This document shows, piece after piece, positions 1,257-9,003 of a stretch of 12,807 bases of DNA. Under the pieces are notes generated by a model that did not search any database, was not told the DNA's origin, and saw nothing but the letters and a program-made list of their open reading frames with translations. Location of the stretch: the UHGV virus genome UHGV-1674620; one strand, written 5' to 3'. The stretch is from a virus. The first letter of the stretch is position 1; every line of letters begins with the position of its first letter. The translations under genes were made by a program, and so were the position numbers.

Positions 1257-1628
1257 CTATATGTAACAATCAATTTCTAAAGATACCCCCAACATTGCCA
1301 GACAACCGTCAATAAACCCTTCAGCTTTCTGCAGTCTGATAACAACCTGATTAAGTGATATCCCCAGTTTTACCCCCAACACCCGTAATGTAACCCCATA
1401 CACATAATACATTTCCAGTAATTCGTATTGATACGGTTCCTTTTTCTTAAGAACTGTCATCGCAGAGCTAATGATCAAGCCATCGTCATCGCTACATTGC
1501 GGGCGGGATTTTACTTTCGAAGGAATTAATCCCTTAAAACCTGCAGCAACAGATGACCATTCCACATCCTCGTGATTATTTGCCACCCATGCCCCCCAAC
1601 GTTCAAGAACCATTTGAATATCACGCAT
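1257..1628 (-). CDS. Phage late-gene antiterminator Q (Q-like, short approx. 123-aa form resembling DLP12 QuuD)
   Basis: N-terminal MRDIQMVLERWGAWVANNHEDV...AAGFKGLI...KVKSRPQC matches my memory of short Q antiterminators of E. coli defective prophages. ATG at 1628 has GGAGA 6 nt upstream; the track start at 1643 is a TTG. Position after the nin-like genes is as expected. Confidence 0.75.
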   Translation of the reverse strand: MRDIQMVLERWGAWVANNHEDVEWSSVAAGFKGLIPSKVKSRPQCSDDDGLIISSAMTVLKKKEPYQYELLEMYYVYGVTLRVLGVKLGISLNQVVIRLQKAEGFIDGCLAMLGVSLEIDCYI

Positions 1629-1645
1629 CAACTTTCTCCACAAAA

Positions 1646-2641
1646 TCAGGCCAGCACGCCTATTGCCAGCGCACGATCGATAAAACGAAATATCAGCTCC
1701 AGCTGGGAGCCATACTTCTCTTCAAATGCCACGGTATCCGCATGCAGCTCGTCGTGATGCTTTCTGCACAAAGGCAGCACGAAGAGGTCATGCGCTTTTG
1801 TACCCATTCCCCCCTGACCGTGGCCTATCAGGTGGTGGGGATCATCAGCAGGCTTTCCACAACATGCACACGGCTGCGTCTTAACCCAGCGCGTGTACTT
1901 TTCGTTAACCCAGCGGCGACGTTTTGGGCGTAACATAAAAGACTCCGGCGACTCCGGATCCACTTTCAGCGCCAGCACCTTTTTCGCTTTATTCTGGATG
2001 ATGCTGGTGGCCGGAACCGAAGGCACAAGGTCACTCTCCCGGGTGACAGACGGCACAACAGGCTTCGGTAATCTCAGTGCCTTACGGGCTGCACTTTCCG
2101 GTAAGGCATCCGCCAGATCATTACGAACCAGCCACCAGCACAGTTCCGGCATTGTCACAACGTGACTGTCATCAAAACCGAGATCCCGACGCACAACAGA
2201 CAACACCCAGCGGGCACAGTTATCCGTTGCCATTGATTCCAGCCGTTCCGTGAACTGATCGCGCAGCTGGTTATCGCAGTGCCAGCACAGACGGATTGCG
2301 CCCGGCGCGTGTCGCATTGTGGTCATGTTCTCGCTGTGCCAGTCGGAATGAGGCCACTGGCAACCTTTTTCACGAAGTAACCAGCTTTCAAGACATTCCA
2401 CGCCACCAGCACGACGGATCACTGCCTCATTGCGGAACACGGCCCGAACGGCAGGATCATCCGCCAGCGGTTGTGATGCCGCCGGAACGGCACCACTGGC
2501 GAAAGATGAATAACGCTCCGGCTCAGGCTCCAGCAGGACACGCCCCTGCATAAACAGGGGCATCAGCTCTGAACCTGGCCTGAACAATACGATCCCCATA
2601 CGCGGGGCAATTTCAGGGGTCAGTAGTGCTCTCACAGTCAC
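1646..2641 (-). CDS. DUF968-type phage protein with C-terminal Cys/His (HNH or zinc-finger-like) motif
   Basis: C-terminal CACCGKPADDPHHLIGHGQGGMGTKAHDLFVLPLCRKHHDELH (C-x2-C, HH, C, HH-x3-H) as in nin-region DUF968 proteins of E. coli prophages (from memory). Start is GTG at 2641 or 2635; stop abuts the Q-like start. Confidence 0.65.
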   Translation of the reverse strand: MTVRALLTPEIAPRMGIVLFRPGSELMPLFMQGRVLLEPEPERYSSFASGAVPAASQPLADDPAVRAVFRNEAVIRRAGGVECLESWLLREKGCQWPHSDWHSENMTTMRHAPGAIRLCWHCDNQLRDQFTERLESMATDNCARWVLSVVRRDLGFDDSHVVTMPELCWWLVRNDLADALPESAARKALRLPKPVVPSVTRESDLVPSVPATSIIQNKAKKVLALKVDPESPESFMLRPKRRRWVNEKYTRWVKTQPCACCGKPADDPHHLIGHGQGGMGTKAHDLFVLPLCRKHHDELHADTVAFEEKYGSQLELIFRFIDRALAIGVLA

Positions 2642-2642
2642 C

Positions 2643-3458
2643 TCAATGAACGGTATCGAGCAGCTTTAACAGCTCAGGAAATCGGGATTCGAAGAAATGC
2701 GGCTGCGTCTCGCGCGGATTTGCAGGACTGGTGATGTTCTTGCCGAACATGCAGCCTTTCGCGGTCAGCGACCAGAATTTTTTGATGTTGTTAATCGCGG
2801 TACGGCTGTATCGTTCGCGTTGTTCAACGATCCCCAGCTTCGCCATCTGGTGATATGCCTGATTAGCCGTCAGGCGGATACCATACTGCTTCAGCAGTGC
2901 ACTCAGCGACAGCGTAGGGCGGCTTGAACCATCTGGCGCATCAGCAGGTGCATCAATGGCATAGATCGGCATAAGTTCAGGAAGACCAGCTACCTTTGAT
3001 AATTTCTGGTATGCACCAAGTTTCGAGGAGTTTGACAGATTTAGAGTCTTTGCTGCTGATTCAAGCAGAATGACCCCGGATTTAATTTTGTCGGATGTGG
3101 TTTCTTCTGGTGATGAATTATGAAGCGCATCAAAAGTACGTATCACTTTTAAGCTGAATGCCGGGCTGATCCACATTGCATATGCATAGACCAGCTCTTT
3201 ACAGACATACGTCCCACCATTGCGCCCCTGAATGGTGATGACAGGAATACTACGGGAATCTCCCGTAGTTTCTTCTTCCAATAATTCCACAAGAGCCTTC
3301 GTTTCAGGACGACGCATAAACTCGTGAACTTCCAGCGAACGGGAGGAGCGATTCTCACCAGCGGCAAGAAGAGCAGCTTTCTGAAGGTCGTTAAGACAGT
3401 AGTTAGATTCGAAGTACTGGCGCACAGAAACGCCATCAATTACAAGCAACTGATTCAT
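2643..3458 (-). CDS. KilA-N domain protein (antirepressor or regulator-like), about 271 aa
   Basis: N-terminal region contains GTYVCKELVYAYAMWISPAFSLKVI, the characteristic KilA-N signature (A.W.SP.F). ATG at 3458 has GGAG 6 nt upstream; the track start at 3470 is GTG. Confidence 0.7.
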   Translation of the reverse strand: MNQLLVIDGVSVRQYFESNYCLNDLQKAALLAAGENRSSRSLEVHEFMRRPETKALVELLEEETTGDSRSIPVITIQGRNGGTYVCKELVYAYAMWISPAFSLKVIRTFDALHNSSPEETTSDKIKSGVILLESAAKTLNLSNSSKLGAYQKLSKVAGLPELMPIYAIDAPADAPDGSSRPTLSLSALLKQYGIRLTANQAYHQMAKLGIVEQRERYSRTAINNIKKFWSLTAKGCMFGKNITSPANPRETQPHFFESRFPELLKLLDTVH

Positions 3459-3555
3459 TGGTTTCTCCACAAATTTTTATCCACGAGCGGGACTGCACTC
3501 CCTTTTCGTTGATGCAGGATGAACTTACTGCGATTTTTAATAGTTATCAAGGATA

Positions 3556-3575
3556 CACTGTTCATAAATACAGTA
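3556..3575. promoter_or_regulatory. Candidate LexA (SOS) box upstream of the KilA-N gene
   Basis: Plus strand cACTGTtcataaatACAGTa: perfect CTGT-N8-ACAG core with AT-rich centre and matching flanks, in the 150-bp intergenic spacer about 100 bp upstream of the KilA-N ATG. Adjacent minus-strand promoter-like hexamers are TTGATA (3550..3545), 17-bp spacer, TAAGTT (3527..3522). Confidence 0.55.
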
Positions 3576-3620
3576 TCTTTAACGAGGTAATACCCAAATT
3601 TAGGGTGTTGCTCAATTCCG

Positions 3621-4016
3621 TTACCGAGTTGCTAATTTGCAACTCGCTTTTTCGTACTTACTGATAGTGATCTCGACCTTCCCTTCCGGGATAACCGGTC
3701 CCCACTCCACCAGCATTCTTTTCACCTGGCTGTCGTCTTCCCACACACCCGCGTGGGTCAGGGCGTCAAACAGCGCCTTGTTATAGTTGTCCAGATCGCG
3801 GATCCGGTTATCCGGAGGAAACAACACGATCTCCACTGAAGCAGGTGCCGACGTTGGTTTCGGCAGACGACGTAACTGCTCAACTATTGCTGCACACGCC
3901 GCGCTCTGGAATTTTCGCCCCGCCGCGCTTATCAGGCTCTTACCAGCAAACGCCCCTTTGTTGGGGTGTCGCCAGTACGTGTTCACGCTGGGCGGAAAAG
4001 GCAGTATTAGCTTCAT
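3621..4016 (-). CDS. rusA: Crossover junction endodeoxyribonuclease RusA (Holliday junction resolvase)
   Basis: 131 aa; N-terminal MKLILPFPPSVNTYWRH and ...RDLDNYNKALFDALTHAGVWEDDSQV... match the RusA family (compare DLP12 RusA LPWPPSNNRYY...[27 protein letters not shown], from memory). Start overlaps the upstream stop by 4 nt. Confidence 0.85.
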   Translation of the reverse strand: MKLILPFPPSVNTYWRHPNKGAFAGKSLISAAGRKFQSAACAAIVEQLRRLPKPTSAPASVEIVLFPPDNRIRDLDNYNKALFDALTHAGVWEDDSQVKRMLVEWGPVIPEGKVEITISKYEKASCKLATR

Positions 4017-4666
4017 GCCACCATCTCCCTGACCAGTTTTTCCGCCTGCTGGCGAACCTGCGCCAGAAATGCCTCACCACATGCCTCAAGTTCATCGCGC
4101 CCGATGTAGCTGATTGCCGGTCCCTTCCAGGTCTTGTCGAAAACAGCAATAGCACCAGCGAAGAAAGCACCTGTTGGCACCTGCTTTTCGTCTTTCGGGA
4201 TAAACCAGGCAGGCAGTTCAAAACCAATACGCCCGCGAATAAAAGCAATATGATCTGCATCTTCCGGCCACCACACTTCGCTGGTGGCAGCTTTGATCAG
4301 GAAAACATAGCGCCCGCCTTTATCACGCATGGCAGTGGCATGCTTCATGATGTAACGCATGCCGGTGATGTATTGCCCCTCATGCTGACTGGCGCGGCTG
4401 TACGGGGGATTGCCAAAGGCAGCACCTTTAAGCTCCGCAAGACGTTCTGACCAGTCATGCGCCAGCGCGTTGTCTTCCGCCGTGTAATACGCGGCACATT
4501 TGGCGTTATCACCGTCAGTGAACAGATCCAGAACAAACGGACCAAACAAGGTGTTAATTCCCCAGAAAATGTTATCCGGCGTGCGCCACTGATCTCCCAC
4601 TTCCTTCAGTTCATGGGCTGGTTTATTCCGCAGTTCCACCAGCGCCTGGCAATATTTATTACTCAT
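4013..4666 (-). CDS. Phage DNA N6-adenine methyltransferase (Dam-family orphan methyltransferase)
   Basis: 217 aa with the catalytic (D/N)PPY motif in GAAFGNPPYS; size and position after the replication gene are typical of lambdoid orphan MTases. ATG at 4666 is preceded by GGGGG. Confidence 0.8.
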   Translation of the reverse strand: MSNKYCQALVELRNKPAHELKEVGDQWRTPDNIFWGINTLFGPFVLDLFTDGDNAKCAAYYTAEDNALAHDWSERLAELKGAAFGNPPYSRASQHEGQYITGMRYIMKHATAMRDKGGRYVFLIKAATSEVWWPEDADHIAFIRGRIGFELPAWFIPKDEKQVPTGAFFAGAIAVFDKTWKGPAISYIGRDELEACGEAFLAQVRQQAEKLVREMVA

Positions 4667-4760: not shown

Positions 4761-5744
4761 TCACCCCCTGAATCCTGCCGGAATCTGGCTGTAGTCCACG
4801 TTGTCGTAACTGGCTTTGAAGTACGGGTCCTCGCGTCTGGCTGCAGATACCGCAGGAACTTCCCAGGATTCTTCGAAATGACGATCCGGACCAAAGAACG
4901 TCGACGCCTGCTTCACGAACTGGGTACCGGTATTTCCAGAGACACGCACCCAGGCGGCATAGCGTTTCACACCGTCGAGCATGGTTTCGGGTGTCACACC
5001 TTCCCTGATTCGGGCTTTCCAGGCTTTAAAAGCGGCGGATTTTGAATTACCACCAGCACGTTTGGGATATTCCTGCCAGACCTGTTCAAATTCCGGTGAA
5101 TATTCCTGTCGGGCAGAACGCGCTGGCGCAGACGCGTCAGCGGATGCATCAATAGTGTTTTTAGTCTCCGTTGTAATCTCTGTAGTAATCTCTGTATTTG
5201 TATCAACATTCGGCGTATCCCCTGTTCCGTTATGACGTCGGGGGGTGTTCCGTTTTAACGTAATAGCTGTATCGCTGATTGCATTATTGCTGTTACTTTC
5301 TGGCGAAACAGAAGAAGGTGTGGTGATGGCCGCAATTGCCTGTGGGTTGATCCCGACAAACAAAATATTGCTGCATTTCACCCCATCGAGCATTTCCACC
5401 GTGCGTAAATCCAGAGTAATAAACCCTGCATCGCGCAGACGCTTCAGCGCATCTGCGGTTTCCCTTTTCCCGAAACCAAACTGCTCAGCAAACGCCTGGT
5501 AGCTTCTTTGCAGTTTGTCGCCCTGAAAACGCTTGCGATATCCCAGCAACGCTCCGGTGTGCTCATCCCTGACCTCTGTCGGGCGGTACCAGTAAACGAT
5601 CTCTGAAAGCAGAGCGATAGCCGTCGCATCCGGACGCCCACTGGGTAGTCGAATATATTTCCACCAGGTCGCAGGTGTAACATTGCCGGAAATATTAATT
5701 TGACCAATAGCCATAACTTCCGGTGTGGGGGCGTAACGGCTCAT
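4761..5744 (-). CDS. Putative phage replication initiation protein (O-like organiser) with low-complexity central linker
   Basis: 327 aa; winged-helix-like N-terminal region (...KRETADALKRLRDAGFITLD), a central S/T/N/D-rich linker including TEITTEITTE, and a C-terminal ...FEQVWQEYPKR...AFKAWKARIREGV... region. Sits where O lies in lambdoid phages. ATG is preceded by AAGGAGG and overlaps the upstream stop as ATGA. Family assignment is tentative. Confidence 0.55.
   Translation of the reverse strand: MSRYAPTPEVMAIGQINISGNVTPATWWKYIRLPSGRPDATAIALLSEIVYWYRPTEVRDEHTGALLGYRKRFQGDKLQRSYQAFAEQFGFGKRETADALKRLRDAGFITLDLRTVEMLDGVKCSNILFVGINPQAIAAITTPSSVSPESNSNNAISDTAITLKRNTPRRHNGTGDTPNVDTNTEITTEITTETKNTIDASADASAPARSARQEYSPEFEQVWQEYPKRAGGNSKSAAFKAWKARIREGVTPETMLDGVKRYAAWVRVSGNTGTQFVKQASTFFGPDRHFEESWEVPAVSAARREDPYFKASYDNVDYSQIPAGFRG
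5161..5196. repeat. Tandem 12-bp direct repeats (iteron-like) inside the O-like gene; candidate replication origin
   Basis: GTAATCTCTGTA at 5173..5184 and again at 5185..5196, preceded by a degenerate copy TTAGTCTCCGTT (5161..5172). A further pair of 15-mers, TGTTCCGTT(A/T)T(G/A)ACG, lies at 5223..5237 and 5246..5260. Confidence 0.4.
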
Positions 5745-6040
5745 ACAACCTCCTTCCGCAGCATGAGAATTGTGTAGCCACGCGCAGGTTGTAGTCTGGC
5801 TTTTGCATCAATAGTAAGCGTTGCAATTTTTCGGATATGAAGATAACCAGCTCTTTCCAGTGCCAGGGTTTCCCTGAATATCGCTTGCTTAGAACAACAG
5901 CAGAAATCAGCAAGCACCTGATGATCAATAACTCTCTCGCCTTCACCGTCTGAAGAACCCGACATCAAAACACGCAACATAATCAGGCGCTGAATCGGGT
6001 TATCGAAAGCACATCCGCACACAAACTGAAAACAGTTCAC
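5741..6040 (-). CDS. Hypothetical phage protein, 99 aa, possible winged-helix fold
   Basis: Track ORF; GTG start at 6040 is preceded by GGGAGG 6 nt upstream; its stop overlaps the O-like ATG (ATGA). Segment SKQAIFRETLALERAGYLHIRKI looks helix-turn-helix-like. Confidence 0.45.
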   Translation of the reverse strand: MNCFQFVCGCAFDNPIQRLIMLRVLMSGSSDGEGERVIDHQVLADFCCCSKQAIFRETLALERAGYLHIRKIATLTIDAKARLQPARGYTILMLRKEVV

Positions 6041-6261
6041 GCCACACCTCCCAGACGCTTAAACATTTTTCCGGAGCAAAAGGCTATAAGCGGCATACTG
6101 ATGCGGTAATTACGGCCCAGCGGTTCACAAATCACCTTCTGACATTCACGGTCAACCAGGCTGACACGTAGAACATGCCCTGCAGGCGTGGTGTACCACT
6201 GACCAGGACGAGGACAACGGAAAGTCTGATTGGTAAACCGTTTGAAAATATTCCGGATCAT
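6037..6261 (-). CDS. Hypothetical phage protein, 74 aa, four Cys
   Basis: Track ORF; ATG at 6261 overlaps the Rha-ORF stop (ATGA) and is preceded by a G-rich Shine-Dalgarno; its stop overlaps the next gene's GTG. Confidence 0.4.
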   Translation of the reverse strand: MIRNIFKRFTNQTFRCPRPGQWYTTPAGHVLRVSLVDRECQKVICEPLGRNYRISMPLIAFCSGKMFKRLGGVA

Positions 6262-7406
6262 TTGCGCCCCCTTACCTCTGAAGGGTTCAGCGACAAATTT
6301 ATGAGACTGGCCAGTAGCGCCGCGTCGTTGATGCGGTCATACAGACTTACAGCCAGCGGTGATTCGGCTTTTGCCAACATGGGATAAAGCTGCTGCAGCC
6401 AGACCTGATGAATTGATGAAATGTAGGAATAGAGAACGCTGGCGTTATGTGCAACGTCGCTCAGTACAGAGGGATTTGAAAGCTGTTTCTCCATCTGGTT
6501 AAAGGCATTGATGTATGCCTCTTTGAACTGGGCAGCACGTTTACCCGTGAAACCCATAGCAAGAAACGCAAAGCCGTCGCGGGTTATTTGATAGCAAGGT
6601 AGTTTGCGGCCTGTGCAATCGGTGTAATCACTCACCGAAAAATTGCGGGAAGTGAATGATGCAGAGCATTCAAGCGTGCGGATCTTTTTCAGTACATCGT
6701 CATGACGTTTGGAGAAGAAGTTGGCAACAGCCAGGGATGAAGTAACAGCCTGACCATCAACGATGGCAATTTCAGGTTGAGTGAGGGTTGGGATCGTAGC
6801 CATGATGGCAGCCTCCGTTGACTGTGGAAAACTTCCACCACCGGAGCTGCGAAACTCACTGGTGGCAGACTGAACAGGGTTCGCAGTACCGGCGTCAACG
6901 GAGACCGGCGAGCCTTTCGGCTCCCCTGCCCAGCCCACCATAATTCTGGCGTGCGTGAGCGCGGACGATAAAAAAGACGCTGGCGCGTCATATATCGCCG
7001 TTGACAATTCCGGGCTGCGACCCCCGGCACCCGCTTTATAAGGTGCCTGAGCAGTGTAACGTCCCGGAATTGCAGAATCAATATGCTGGTGGTCCTTCAC
7101 ACTCAACAAAATCACGCCTGAATTTCCACAAAGGACTAAAGCACTCATGCGGGTAGTCTTTGCGAAGATAGATAACGCGCTGTGTTTCTGGCTCCCAACG
7201 AATAACATGAACATAAAGTCCTCTTCCGTCACGAAACCAGCGGTTAAGTTCCTGCACAACTCGCCCCCCACAGTCAGGTAAAGTTCTCTGTGGTTACTTA
7301 CAGCCAGGTGATTTGGTAATCTGCATTCATGCCGTAACAACAGGTGTTCAGCGACGCTGACCACCAGCTGTTGCGACAAACGGTTATTTGCCGTTAAACT
7401 ATTCAT
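6258..7406 (-). CDS. Rha-family phage regulatory protein; the Rha domain is the C-terminal 181 aa (internal start at 6803), preceded by about 200 in-frame codons of unknown function
   Basis: MATIPTLTQPEIAIVDGQAVTSSLAVANFFSKRHDDVLKKIRTLEC is the characteristic Rha N-terminal signature (TSL.VA..F.KRHD.VL..I). The ATG at 6803 has GGAGG 8 nt upstream. The frame stays open upstream to an ATG at 7406 that overlaps the cII-like stop (ATGA). Confidence 0.6.
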   Translation of the reverse strand: MNSLTANNRLSQQLVVSVAEHLLLRHECRLPNHLAVSNHRELYLTVGGELCRNLTAGFVTEEDFMFMLFVGSQKHSALSIFAKTTRMSALVLCGNSGVILLSVKDHQHIDSAIPGRYTAQAPYKAGAGGRSPELSTAIYDAPASFLSSALTHARIMVGWAGEPKGSPVSVDAGTANPVQSATSEFRSSGGGSFPQSTEAAIMATIPTLTQPEIAIVDGQAVTSSLAVANFFSKRHDDVLKKIRTLECSASFTSRNFSVSDYTDCTGRKLPCYQITRDGFAFLAMGFTGKRAAQFKEAYINAFNQMEKQLSNPSVLSDVAHNASVLYSYISSIHQVWLQQLYPMLAKAESPLAVSLYDRINDAALLASLINLSLNPSEVRGRK

Positions 7407-7960
7407 GCGTTAGTTTCTCCACAACCAGAAGCAATCGACGCCACGACGCCCGGAGCTGCACACTCGCGGGCGTTACTATTTTCTGGAGCGCAGAAGATTT
7501 TGTAGACCAGTGCTGCATGCTCCTGGAGCTTCGAAATTGAGAGGTACAGCTCGTCGTTAATTGCTGTCTTCTCATGCGGTTCCACTACACCGTCTTCGAT
7601 TGCTGAACGAATCTGTCTGGAATAACTGCCGATCTGTTCAATGACTTCCAGCAGACGCTGGTTAATATCGGCGTTGTCCACATCCTCGACGTCAGGAAGA
7701 GACACAAAGACGCCATTTGCAGACTGCGCCACAGCGTCAGCAATGAAGTGAGTTCCACCAGCACGTTGTAAAATCATTGCCCATCCCAGCGGGAAAATCT
7801 GATCGCCATCGGCACGAAGGCGATTGAATAAAGCGTTCTCTGTTACATCCAGCCACTCAGCAGCTTCAGCGTAACCCCCCGGCAATGCCGCGATAGTTTT
7901 TCTGACAGCTTTCACGTACCACTCAGGTTGTTTTTCCACTTTCCAATGATGCTTACCCAC
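7403..7960 (-). CDS. CII-like phage regulatory protein (CP76-type), 185 aa
   Basis: Immediately downstream of cro, overlapping it by 8 nt; GTG start with AGGAGG 6 nt upstream. Weak resemblance by memory to the phage regulatory protein CII (CP76) family, which occupies this position in E. coli prophages. Confidence 0.5.
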   Translation of the reverse strand: MGKHHWKVEKQPEWYVKAVRKTIAALPGGYAEAAEWLDVTENALFNRLRADGDQIFPLGWAMILQRAGGTHFIADAVAQSANGVFVSLPDVEDVDNADINQRLLEVIEQIGSYSRQIRSAIEDGVVEPHEKTAINDELYLSISKLQEHAALVYKIFCAPENSNARECAAPGVVASIASGCGETNA

Positions 7961-8310: not shown

Positions 8311-9003
8311 ATGAACATAGGAAATCGAGTCAGACAACTTCGCCAGGCGAAGAACATGAAAATCGCCGATCTCGCTGAAGCAATAGGAGTGGATGCGGCG
8401 AATATCTCGCGCCTCGAAACAGGTAAGCAGAAACAATTCACTGAACAAGCCCTGAGTAATATTGCCAGGAGCTTAGGTGTTGATATTGCTGATCTCTTTA
8501 CCTCAGACCTCAAAAGTAATACTGTATGTAAAAACAGTATTAGTGAGGATGTTGCGCAGGTGAAGGATGTATTCCGTATTGAAATGCTGGATGTCAGTGC
8601 CAGTGCGGGAAATGGCCTTATCCAGGGCGGTGATGTCATTGATGTGATTCATGCCATTGAATACAGAACTGATAATGCTGTATCGATGTTTGGTGGACGA
8701 CCAGCAAATCACATTAAAGTTATCAACGTTCGTGGGGACAGTATGTGTCCAACCATTGAGCCAGGAGATCTCATCTTCGTTGATATCAGTATCAATCAGT
8801 TTGATGGGGATGGTATATATGTATTTGGTTTTGATGATAAAATTTACGTCAAACGACTGCAAATGATACCTGATAAACTGCTGGTAATTTCTGATAATCA
8901 GATTTACCGCGAATGGGGAATTACCAGCGAAAACGAACATCGGTTTATGGTCTTTGGAAAGGTCTTAATCAGTCAGTCACAAACCCTTAAGCGACACAAT
9001 TAA
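8311..9003 (+). CDS. CI-like prophage repressor (N-terminal XRE-type HTH, C-terminal S24 LexA-like autopeptidase domain)
   Basis: 230 aa; HTH MKIADLAEAIGVDAANISRLETGKQ; S24 motifs VRGDSMCPTIEPGDLIFVD (Ser) and IYVKRLQ (Lys), with a candidate Ala-Gly cleavage site in DVSASAGNG; divergent from cro. Confidence 0.9.
   Translation: MNIGNRVRQLRQAKNMKIADLAEAIGVDAANISRLETGKQKQFTEQALSNIARSLGVDIADLFTSDLKSNTVCKNSISEDVAQVKDVFRIEMLDVSASAGNGLIQGGDVIDVIHAIEYRTDNAVSMFGGRPANHIKVINVRGDSMCPTIEPGDLIFVDISINQFDGDGIYVFGFDDKIYVKRLQMIPDKLLVISDNQIYREWGITSENEHRFMVFGKVLISQSQTLKRHN
8520..8539. promoter_or_regulatory. Candidate LexA (SOS) box inside the cI coding sequence (linker between HTH and S24 domains)
   Basis: TACTGTATGTAAAAACAGTA: 20-mer with perfect TACTGT-N8-ACAGTA architecture (12 fixed positions matching the consensus TACTGT(AT)4ACAGTA); encodes NTVCKNS of CI. 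Confidence 0.45.

What the first reader, a model, noticed from the sequence alone, without database searches (positions are those of the whole stretch)
6258..7406. Rha-domain gene carries a 200-codon in-frame upstream extension with an internal ribosome-binding site
The Rha signature begins at the ATG at 6803, which has its own GGAGG. Yet the frame is open for another 603 nt up to an ATG at 7406 that overlaps the cII-like stop. A stop-free run this long is unlikely to be noncoding (chance roughly 1e-4 for random sequence). The extension has an N-terminal part that looks protein-like and a G/S/A/P-rich linker. This could be a two-domain protein with nested full-length and short isoforms, or a fusion created by loss of a stop codon.
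Basis: seen in the sequence. Interest (0 to 1): 0.5.

Follow-up and report, generated by a model that had tools for sequence, protein, structure and literature searches.

The report
RNA immunity switch inside Rha's long frame
The "extension" of this prophage Rha gene is not a protein domain: it holds two known small regulatory RNA genes and a small gene in another frame, all inside a stop-free frame that looks deliberately kept open, an arrangement already described for satellite phage P4.

Summary
ORF 6258..7406(-) is 382 codons. The Rha domain starts at ATG 6803, which has its own GGAGG. A 603-nt stop-free lead has a chance of about 1e-4.

The extension is not a protein domain. It contains:
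- an intergenic spacer (7402-7258);
- a DUF4222 gene in another frame (7257-7078), which is under purifying selection;
- a conserved internal promoter (7081-7053);
- the isrK/seqA-type sRNA with its terminator (7046-6970);
- the C4/CI-type antisense RNA (6945-6858).

The two specificity elements of C4 are complementary to sites in isrK and to the Rha Shine-Dalgarno. These elements and their targets co-vary across 35 related modules.

The frame still looks deliberately kept open. Twenty diverged enterobacterial modules have 0 frame-0 stop sites, against 10 and 10 in the other frames. In some loci the frame stays open antisense through a toxin-antitoxin pair.

This matches phage P4 eta/kil. There, a long ORF that starts upstream of the internal promoter is translated across seqA-CI to prevent termination, and a short in-frame gene is nested at its end.

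Verdict: a new member of a known regulatory architecture. The nested long and short ORFs are plausible. A folded N-terminal domain or a stop-loss fusion is not.

The parts
7403..7960 (-). cII-like / YmfL gene; its TGA stop (7405-7403) overlaps ATG 7406 of the long ORF as ATGA
   Evidence: Pfam Phage_CP76 4.6e-14; phrog_101 CII-like activator 9.5e-72; RefSeq 'protein YmfL'
6258..7406 (-). Long stop-free frame (382 codons): eta-like ORF, with the Rha gene nested in frame at its 3' end
   Evidence: annotated WP_001530587.1; stop depletion; P4 eta analogue
7258..7402 (-). Spacer between cII/YmfL and DUF4222; no recognisable feature; no significant codon periodicity
   Evidence: 30% variable columns, 13/20/10 by long-frame codon position, p=0.16; no Pfam hit
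7078..7257 (-). DUF4222 gene (59 aa, GTG start), read one base out of phase with the long ORF
   Evidence: Pfam PF13973 9.4e-14; phrog_1343 1.9e-36; variable sites 8/5/22 by its codon positions, p=9e-4; dN/dS 0.21; annotated by PGAP in relatives; intact in 29/29 unique homologues
7053..7081 (-). Internal promoter PisrK: -35 TTGATT 7081-7076, 17-nt spacer, -10 TACACT 7058-7053, start about 7046; the -35 overlaps the DUF4222 stop codon
   Evidence: By eye, at the same position as the mapped Gifsy-1 isrK promoter; -35 and -10 are positionally conserved in 36 unique upstream sequences; the strict consensus scan found none
6970..7046 (-). isrK / P4 seqA-type sRNA, containing C4 target a1 (7020-7015), target b1 (7005-6998), and an intrinsic terminator (stem 6989-6976 plus U6)
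   Evidence: Rfam RF01394 58.7 bits, gathering score 50; terminator; covariation in hairpin 1 and a U-run in 31/31 homologues; target coordinates
6858..6945 (-). C4 / P4 CI-type antisense RNA; b' loop CUCCGUUGAC 6903-6894; a' CUGCGAA 6886-6880; AUG 6941-6939 equals the start of Gifsy-1 orf45, here in frame with Rha
   Evidence: Rfam RF01695 78.8 bits, gathering score 45; 21 of 26 base pairs show compensatory changes in 33 sequences
6804..6857 (-). 54-nt leader with C4 target a2 UUCGCAG (6853-6847), target b2 GUCAACGGAG (6822-6813) and Shine-Dalgarno GGAGG (6816-6812)
   Evidence: the MFE fold pairs the b' loop with the SD region, z = -5.4; loops and targets co-vary in 35 modules
6258..6803 (-). 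Rha-domain gene, short form (181 aa): the C4-controlled start
   Evidence: Pfam Phage_pRha 1.5e-30; an SD-preceded ATG lies 45-57 nt after C4 in 43 of 44 unique modules; homologues align from residue 1; phrog_518/373 Rha-like or anti-repressor
6037..6261 (-). Next gene (74 aa, phrog_1153); its ATG overlaps the Rha stop (ATGA); replication-initiation genes follow at 5741-6040 and 4761-5744

Best explanation
The 603-nt 'extension' houses a P4/P1-type antisense-RNA immunity module. The module sits in the early-right operon of a lambdoid prophage, between cII/YmfL and the replication genes.

Shown from sequence and comparison:
- An internal promoter (7081-7053) precedes the isrK/seqA-type sRNA, which ends at its own terminator (7046-6970).
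- Beyond that terminator lies the C4/CI-type RNA (6945-6858).
- The b' and a' elements of C4 are complementary to b1/a1 inside isrK, and to b2/a2 in the leader. b2 covers the Shine-Dalgarno of the Rha gene, whose ATG is at 6803.
- A DUF4222 gene (7257-7078) is read in another frame.

Inferred from phage P4 (eta/kil), P1 (c4-icd-ant) and Gifsy-1 (isrK-orf45-anrP):
- In the lysogen, the internal promoter makes IsrK and C4. C4 masks the Rha ribosome-binding site. Rha and the downstream replication genes stay off, because untranslated RNA is terminated.
- After induction, transcripts from the upstream early promoter carry the whole stop-free frame. Its ATG overlaps the cII/YmfL stop. In some relatives the frame instead starts at the end of DUF4222.
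- Ribosomes reading this frame run through the promoter, terminator, C4 and the target sites. That overrides the termination and masking, and yields a long product ending in the Rha domain.
- The extension therefore matters as a translated track, not as a folded domain.

Sub-confidences: identity of the RNA module about 0.95; ATG 6803 as the regulated start about 0.9; the long frame being kept open for eta-like translation about 0.6.
For: - Both RNAs score above the Rfam gathering thresholds. The same fixed geometry (isrK, C4, about 54 nt, SD-ATG) occurs in 43 unique modules from Enterobacterales to Marinomonas, Aeromonas and Vibrio, and in Gifsy-1 and P4.
- In C4, 21 of 26 base pairs show compensatory changes.
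- The b' loop matches its own b2 site over 8.4 nt on average, against 4.1 nt for non-cognate sites. The a' element behaves the same way. Each module has its own loop sequence with matching b1/b2 and a1/a2 sites.
- The module is only 62-80% identical between prophages whose flanks are 97-100% identical.
- The promoter is positionally conserved. The terminator is found by the scan and its U-run is conserved.
- The DUF4222 frame is under purifying selection and the long frame is not.
- Frame 0 is kept open. In 20 modules with a median identity of 66%, there are 0 stop sites in frame 0 against 10 and 10 in the other frames (p = 3e-4). In the isrK part the counts are 1 against 9 and 7 (p = 0.01).
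- In five loci the frame stays open for 225-330 more codons, antisense through a TumE/HTH toxin-antitoxin pair, while the other frames carry 10-23 stops.
- The same long frame runs into a different 77-aa gene in L003.
- P4 ORF 8168..8812 spans isrK and C4 and ends in the 65-aa kil. It aligns with the window ORF at E = 3e-14.
- The P4 mechanism is summarised in PMC10111431. The Gifsy-1 mechanism is described in PMC4825925.
Against: - There are no expression data for this element.
- The long frame overlaps the whole DUF4222 gene, so two frames would have to be translated from one mRNA.
- The frame that lies +1 to DUF4222 is intrinsically poor in stops. It is open in 24 of 29 cores.
- Spacer A is too conserved among relatives to test.
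- Frame 0 is interrupted in Gifsy-1, L013, L016, L065 and L101, and in all 17 non-enterobacterial modules, so the RNAs function without it.
- The related modules are not phylogenetically independent.
- The original P4 paper (Forti et al. 1999) could not be read. I rely on a secondary summary and on memory.
- The biochemical role of this Rha protein is only inferred from family names.
Confidence: 0.62

Rival explanations
1. Passive by-product. The frame is never translated upstream of 6803. It is open only because the GC-rich, sequence-constrained RNAs and the +1 frame of DUF4222 happen to lack stops. The 382-aa annotation is purely an artefact.
For: There is no codon periodicity in the RNA part, and dN/dS is at or above 1 in the long frame. 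The ORF contains a promoter and a terminator. The frame is broken in several relatives and in all non-enteric modules. The +1 frame of DUF4222 is open in 24 of 29 cores. Pfam Phage_ASH also matches the P4 'cI' ORF lying over the CI RNA.
Against: Stop sites number 0-1 in frame 0, against 7-10 in each other frame, across modules that are 52-100% identical. The frame stays open antisense through a diverged toxin-antitoxin pair, with P(0 stops) of 0.02-0.36 for the HTH gene and no TTA/CTA/TCA codons in TumE. Start and stop overlaps with the upstream gene occur in several lineages. P4 provides a precedent.
Confidence: 0.25
2. Only a short leader ORF is translated. It starts at AUG 6941, the equivalent of Gifsy-1 orf45. 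Here it is fused in frame to Rha, giving a 227-aa isoform beside the 181-aa one, or it simply couples ribosomes into Rha.
For: In Gifsy-1, orf45 starts at the same conserved UUAUGG, is translated, and is needed for anrP translation. The AUG is in phase 0 with the gene ATG in 32 of 42 modules that have such an AUG (20 of the 26 enterobacterial ones), and there are no stops between them in the enterobacterial ones.
Against: It does not explain the stop depletion upstream of 6941, or the openness through the toxin-antitoxin cassette. There is no Shine-Dalgarno before 6941. From my own knowledge of P1 and P4, RNase P processing of C4 cuts at this AUG.
Confidence: 0.1
3. A genuine two-domain protein with a folded N-terminal domain, or a recent fusion made by loss of a stop codon.
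For: The long ORF is annotated as such in RefSeq, and PHROG and Pfam profiles cover long forms.
Against: There is no amino-acid-level constraint. Residues 1-116 have no Pfam hit and no PDB match with E below 0.1. The 'domain' hit, Phage_ASH, lies exactly over the two RNAs. The open frame is shared by distant relatives that have different downstream genes.
Confidence: 0.03

Closest known systems
Phage P4 immunity region: PLE, seqA, CI RNA, seqC, and the nested genes eta and kil
   Same: An isrK/seqA-type RNA and a C4/CI-type RNA lie inside a long ORF. That ORF starts upstream of the internal constitutive promoter and next to the upstream gene. A short gene is nested in frame, starting at an SD-ATG about 54 nt after CI. 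Even the junction peptide EAAIMAT is shared. In P4, translation of eta prevents termination.
   Different: Here the module sits in a lambdoid early-right operon, between cII/YmfL and the replication genes. The nested gene is a 181-aa Rha-domain protein, not the 65-aa Kil. The long frame also overlaps a DUF4222 gene in another frame. No experiments exist for this element.
Salmonella Gifsy-1 isrK-orf45(STnc1160)-anrP locus (PMC4825925)
   Same: The geometry and Rfam families are the same: promoter, IsrK with its terminator, the C4-like RNA, a 54-nt leader, and an SD-ATG of an antirepressor-like gene.
   Different: AnrP is unrelated to this Rha by BLASTP. In Gifsy-1 the leader ORF orf45 is out of frame and stops on the anrP start (AUGA), and frame 0 has 3 stops. 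That locus lies next to antQ, not after cII.
Phage P1/P7 immI operon (c4, a1/b1, a2/b2, icd, ant1/ant2)
   Same: The C4 RNA has two specificity elements that pair with one target pair upstream and one at the ribosome-binding site of the antirepressor operon. Specificity changes by co-variation. The Rfam c4-a1b1 motif overlaps isrK in relatives. From my own knowledge, P1 ant also gives nested in-frame Ant1 and Ant2.
   Different: In P1 the controlled ribosome-binding site belongs to icd, which is coupled to ant. As far as I know, no long ORF has been reported across c4.
E. coli K-12 e14 ymfL-ymfM
   Same: ymfM starts at the same ATGA overlap with ymfL and is the positional homologue of the first 112 or so codons of the long ORF.
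   Different: e14 lacks isrK, C4 and rha at this position, and the frame stops after 112 codons. The literature treats YmfM as a division-inhibitor protein.

Membership tests
C4 antisense RNA / P4 CI RNA (Rfam RF01695, clan CL00128) | Covariance-model score above the gathering threshold | tested here: met
   78.8 bits against 45, full length 1-87
C4 antisense RNA / P4 CI RNA (Rfam RF01695, clan CL00128) | Long closing stem with two internal hairpins, supported by covariation | tested here: met
   21 of 26 pairs have compensatory changes in 33 homologues
C4 antisense RNA / P4 CI RNA (Rfam RF01695, clan CL00128) | Two specificity elements (a', b') complementary to one target pair upstream and one at the downstream ribosome-binding site | tested here: met
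   b' matches b2 over 10 nt (covering the SD) and b1 over 8 nt; a' matches a2 over 7 nt and a1 over 6 nt; co-variation in 35 modules
C4 antisense RNA / P4 CI RNA (Rfam RF01695, clan CL00128) | Stable RNA processed from the leader transcript; represses translation and causes termination | not testable with these tools
   Needs northern blots, dRNA-seq and reporter fusions
isrK / P4 seqA sRNA (Rfam RF01394) | Covariance-model score above the gathering threshold | tested here: met
   58.7 bits against 50
isrK / P4 seqA sRNA (Rfam RF01394) | Own promoter and Rho-independent terminator | tested here: met
   Terminator at 6989-6970; -35 and -10 conserved at a fixed distance in 36 sequences. The consensus scan did not call the promoter, so it rests on conservation.
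P4 eta/kil-type nested ORFs | A long ORF starts upstream of the internal promoter, spans both RNAs, and is in frame with the first gene after the C4 target | tested here: met
   P4 comparison
P4 eta/kil-type nested ORFs | The start of the long ORF is coupled to the upstream gene | tested here: met
   ATGA overlap with the cII/YmfL stop, GGAG 10 nt upstream; GTGA overlap with the DUF4222 stop in L012. This is sequence evidence only.
P4 eta/kil-type nested ORFs | The open frame is maintained by selection (nonsense codons are deleterious) | tested here: met
   Frame-0 stop depletion in enterobacterial modules and through the antisense toxin-antitoxin genes. Not seen in non-enteric modules.
P4 eta/kil-type nested ORFs | Translation of the long ORF prevents termination of upstream-promoter transcripts | not testable with these tools
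   Needs nonsense mutants, Rho inhibition and transcript mapping
Rha family (Pfam PF09669) | Phage_pRha domain above the gathering score | tested here: met
   106 bits against 29.9
Pfam PF10554 Phage_ASH, taken as a protein domain | Profile match | tested here: met
   1.3e-17, residues 117-212
Pfam PF10554 Phage_ASH, taken as a protein domain | Protein-level constraint, as expected of a real domain | tested here: not met
   Variable sites fall 48/46/46 by codon position. The match lies exactly over isrK plus C4. The same profile matches the P4 'cI' ORF lying over the CI RNA.
DUF4222 (Pfam PF13973) | Profile match and purifying selection in its own frame | tested here: met
   9.4e-14; dN/dS 0.21; third-position bias p = 9e-4
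Gifsy-1 isrK-orf45-anrP | Leader ORF that ends on the antirepressor start codon; AnrP homologue downstream | tested here: not met
   Here the leader AUG is in frame with no stop; there is no similarity to AnrP

The most novel reading that the evidence does not exclude
Keeping a 'junk' reading frame open may be a general device of e14-like lambdoid early operons. Translating that frame across an RNA-immunity module would shield early transcripts from termination. The frame is maintained even through an antisense-inserted toxin-antitoxin cassette. On this reading, E. coli K-12 ymfM is the decapitated 5' remnant of that frame, and the SfiC division inhibitor may actually be the DUF4222 peptide nested in ymfM.
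Probability: 0.3. Interest if true: 0.55.

Novelty: new member of a known kind. Interest (0 to 1): 0.37.

Why it matters
- **Misleading annotation.** RefSeq calls the whole 382-aa frame a Rha protein. Other genomes annotate a 297-aa form or an 'ash family protein'. The two sRNAs are not annotated in any of the annotated records examined here. The Pfam family Phage_ASH largely models the translation of an RNA module.
- **How common it is.** About 40% of complete E. coli genomes have a match to some part of this region, and about 10% (569) a match covering at least 80% of it.
- **What the module probably does.** It appears to gate the antirepressor-like Rha and the replication genes. Its hypervariable, co-varying loops look like an immunity-specificity determinant in lambdoid prophages, including Stx-converting phages.
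- **An experiment it suggests.** The stop-depletion signal offers a testable link between translation and termination control outside P4.

Tried and rejected
- My first working conclusion was that the ORF is purely spurious. I revised it after the frame-specific stop counts, the antisense toxin-antitoxin analysis and the P4 eta/kil comparison.
- The consensus promoter scan found nothing in 6700-7500. The promoter call rests on positional conservation instead.
- Gifsy-1 AnrP is not a homologue of this Rha.
- Residues 1-116 have no Pfam family. They give only chance-level PDB hits with E of 0.16 or higher. PHROGs matches only long-form and YmfM-like annotation families.
- Spacer 7402-7258 has no significant periodicity in any frame, and the DUF4222 frame has stops there (and reading).
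- The Forti et al. 1999 paper (PMC94026) is not held.
- I did not attempt structure prediction. A single-sequence model of an unconstrained translation would not be informative.
- duplexfold on long segments overestimates pairing, so I replaced it with exact loop-target matching.
Full report
**Observation**

The window carries a 382-codon ORF at 6258..7406 on the minus strand. The Phage_pRha domain covers residues 222-307 of this ORF. An ATG at 6803 is preceded by GGAGG at 6816-6812. The frame stays open for 603 nt upstream, as far as an ATG at 7406. That ATG overlaps the TGA stop of a cII-like/YmfL gene as ATGA. In shuffles of the 603 nt, the frame stays open in 1.2e-4 of trials.

**What the 603 nt contain**

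Rfam gathering-threshold matches lie inside the extension:
- C4 antisense RNA at 6858-6945, 78.8 bits against a threshold of 45.
- isrK at 6970-7046, 58.7 bits against a threshold of 50.

A 59-aa ORF in another frame (7078-7257) is a DUF4222 protein, with Pfam E = 9.4e-14 and phrog_1343 E = 1.9e-36. PGAP annotates it in related genomes.

The isrK match ends in an intrinsic terminator, with its stem at 6989-6976 followed by U6. Upstream of isrK lie a -35 element TTGATT (7081-7076) and a -10 element TACACT (7058-7053). They sit where Gifsy-1 has its mapped isrK promoter. The strict consensus scan did not call this promoter. However, both hexamers are conserved at a fixed position in 36 unique upstream sequences from many genera.

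The only protein-family hit in the extension is Pfam Phage_ASH, at residues 117-212. It lies exactly over isrK plus C4. Residues 1-116 have no Pfam match and no meaningful PDB match.

**Comparative evidence for the RNAs**

The Rha protein was used to collect 154 related loci. Among them are 43 unique modules with the same geometry: isrK, then C4, then an SD-preceded ATG 45-57 nt after C4. Gifsy-1 and P4 have the same arrangement.

- In C4, 21 of 26 base pairs show compensatory double changes across 33 sequences.
- In isrK, hairpin 1 co-varies, and every homologue ends in a hairpin followed by a U-run.
- The window RNA (isrK to the ATG) folds with a z-score of -5.4. In that fold the C4 hairpin-2 loop pairs with the Rha Shine-Dalgarno region.
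- The b' loop CUCCGUUGAC (6903-6894) is exactly complementary to b2, GUCAACGGAG (6822-6813), which overlaps the SD. It also matches b1 (7005-6998) inside isrK.
- The a' element CUGCGAA (6886-6880) matches a2 (6853-6847) and a1 (7020-7015).

Across 35 modules the loops differ, and the targets change with them. The cognate b'-b2 match averages 8.4 nt, against 4.1 nt for non-cognate pairs.

Between prophages whose flanking genes are 97-100% identical, the module is only 62-80% identical. This is what one expects of an immunity-specificity determinant, as with P1 versus P7.

**No protein-level constraint in the extension**

Among 46 unique close relatives, I sorted variable sites by codon position:
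- In the RNA part they fall 48/46/46, with no periodicity (p = 0.97).
- In 7257-7078 they fall 8/5/22 in the DUF4222 frame (p = 9e-4). The favoured position is codon position 2 of the long frame.

dN/dS was computed for the window against Citrobacter (L004) and K-12:
- The DUF4222 frame gives 0.21 against L004. dS is saturated against K-12, where amino-acid identity is 61%.
- The long frame gives 1.07 and 1.79. Amino-acid identity against K-12 is 35%.

The DUF4222 ORF is intact in 29 of 29 unique homologues. The extension is therefore not a conserved protein domain, and ATG 6803 is the conserved, C4-targeted start.

**The frame is nevertheless kept open**

I first took the ORF to be spurious, but frame-specific counts argue otherwise.

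- The frame in phase with the downstream ATG is open across the whole 81-codon module in 21 of 26 enterobacterial modules. The other two frames are open in no more than 2 and 4 modules.
- I counted distinct alignment sites where any sequence carries a stop trinucleotide, using 20 modules with a median identity of 66%. Between the C4 AUG and the gene ATG there are 0 such sites in frame 0, against 10 and 10 in the other frames (p = 3e-4). In the isrK part the counts are 1 against 9 and 7 (p = 0.01).
- In five loci (three Edwardsiella species, Izhakiella, and a contig labelled Martelella), a TumE toxin and HTH antitoxin pair is inserted on the opposite strand between DUF4222 and isrK. Frame 0 stays open for 225-330 further codons through this pair, while the other frames carry 10-23 stops.
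- TumE has no TTA, CTA or TCA codon in any of the five loci. Codon-order shuffles of the HTH gene give P(no stop) of 0.02-0.36.
- In L012 the long frame starts with GTG overlapping the DUF4222 stop (GTGA).
- In L003 the same long frame, starting at the YmfL ATGA, runs through the module into a different 77-aa gene.
- By contrast, frame 0 is never open in the 17 Marinomonas, Endozoicomonas, Aeromonas and Vibrio modules. It is also interrupted in Gifsy-1, L013, L016, L065 and L101. The RNAs are the universal feature, and the open frame is a lineage-specific addition.

**Known precedent**

In phage P4 the homologous RNAs are seqA (isrK-like) and CI (C4-like). P4 ORF 8168..8812 (214 aa) starts within the 3' end of the upstream ORF88 gene. 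It spans both RNAs and ends in '...EAAIMATTLTPSHPE...', which is the 65-aa kil. It aligns with the window ORF at E = 3e-14 over the module translation. The window has the same junction, '...EAAIMATIPTLTQPE...'.

PMC10111431 summarises the P4 experiments as follows:
- The constitutive promoter is internal to eta.
- Kil, the truncated form, is translated on read-through.
- Eta translation prevents termination.

From memory of Forti et al. 1999, nonsense mutations in eta restore termination. I could not retrieve that paper.

In Gifsy-1, IsrK, orf45 (which overlaps the C4-like STnc1160) and the antirepressor-like AnrP form the same module. There, orf45 is translated and is coupled to anrP. AnrP is unrelated to this Rha, and orf45 is out of frame with anrP.

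**Mechanism proposed**

*Shown:* the anatomy, the co-varying complementarity of C4 to the Rha ribosome-binding site and to isrK, the conserved promoter and terminator, and the stop depletion.

*Inferred:*
- In the lysogen, the CI-type repressor (8311-9003) silences the early promoter. The internal promoter makes IsrK and C4. C4 masks the Rha Shine-Dalgarno.
- Rha then stays off, along with the coupled downstream genes: phrog_1153 at 6037-6261 and the replication initiators at 5741-6040 and 4761-5744.
- After induction, early transcripts carry the whole open frame. Ribosomes enter at ATG 7406, coupled to YmfL, or near the end of DUF4222.
- They translate across the terminator, C4 and the target sites. 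This overrides termination and masking, and produces a long product ending in the Rha domain.

**Verdict**

The idea of nested long and short ORFs is plausible and has a direct precedent. A folded N-terminal domain or a stop-loss fusion is not supported. This is a new member of a known regulatory architecture, of moderate interest. Its value lies mainly in correcting annotation and in two side observations: what Pfam Phage_ASH really models, and the ymfM/DUF4222 overlap in K-12.

Noticed in passing
L160 (E. coli K-12 NC_000913 1199000-1208000) 4823-5181; window 7078-7406: The annotated e14 gene ymfM ('cell division inhibitor YmfM', SfiC) contains an unannotated, intact 59-aa DUF4222 ORF in another frame (L160 5002..5181). 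The DUF4222 frame is under purifying selection and the YmfM frame is not: dN/dS is 1.07 and 1.79, and amino-acid identity to the window is 35% against 61%. The published evidence (the ORF cloned in pBAD24, and a ymfM deletion) does not separate the two frames. The real inhibitor could therefore be the DUF4222 peptide.
   Followed up: partly
window 6771-7058; L159 (phage P4) 8329-8521: Pfam PF10554 (Phage_ASH, 'ash family protein' in PGAP) models the frame-0 translation of the isrK-C4 RNA module. It matches the window exactly over the two RNAs. It also matches the historical P4 'cI gene product (AA 1-137)' ORF lying over the CI RNA. A hit to this family is not evidence of a protein domain.
   Followed up: yes
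window 6804-7058 against L002, L087, L113 and others: The RNA module is 62-80% identical between prophages whose flanking DUF4222 and Rha sequences are 97-100% identical. The loops and their targets change together. This looks like exchange or diversification of immunity specificity.
   Followed up: partly
L007, L008, L009, L010, L012 (about 500-1190 in L009): A TumE toxin and HVO_A0114/HTH antitoxin pair is inserted on the opposite strand between DUF4222 and isrK. The Rha frame stays open through it, giving ORFs of 549-584 aa. TumE has no TTA, CTA or TCA codons.
   Followed up: partly
L015 (299-493 and 1258-1446), L065, L113, L116: Some loci carry two tandem isrK-C4 modules, each in front of its own gene and each with its own loop specificity.
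   Followed up: no
L101 1257-1446: This copy has four single-base deletions in the module, and its b'/b2 complementarity is reduced to 6 nt. Its Rha is 98% identical to the window's. It is either a decaying module or sequencing error.
   Followed up: no
L014 1367-1453 (Providencia alcalifaciens): At the position where other loci have C4, the Rfam hit is sRNA-Xcc1 (RF02221, 72 bits). This suggests that family is related to C4, or overlaps it, in this context.
   Followed up: no
window 1257-4666: The rest of the operon is typical lambdoid early and delayed-early content: Dam methylase (4013-4666), RusA (3621-4016), a KilA-N protein (2643-3470), DUF968/HNH (1646-2641) and a Q antiterminator (1257-1643).
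   Followed up: no
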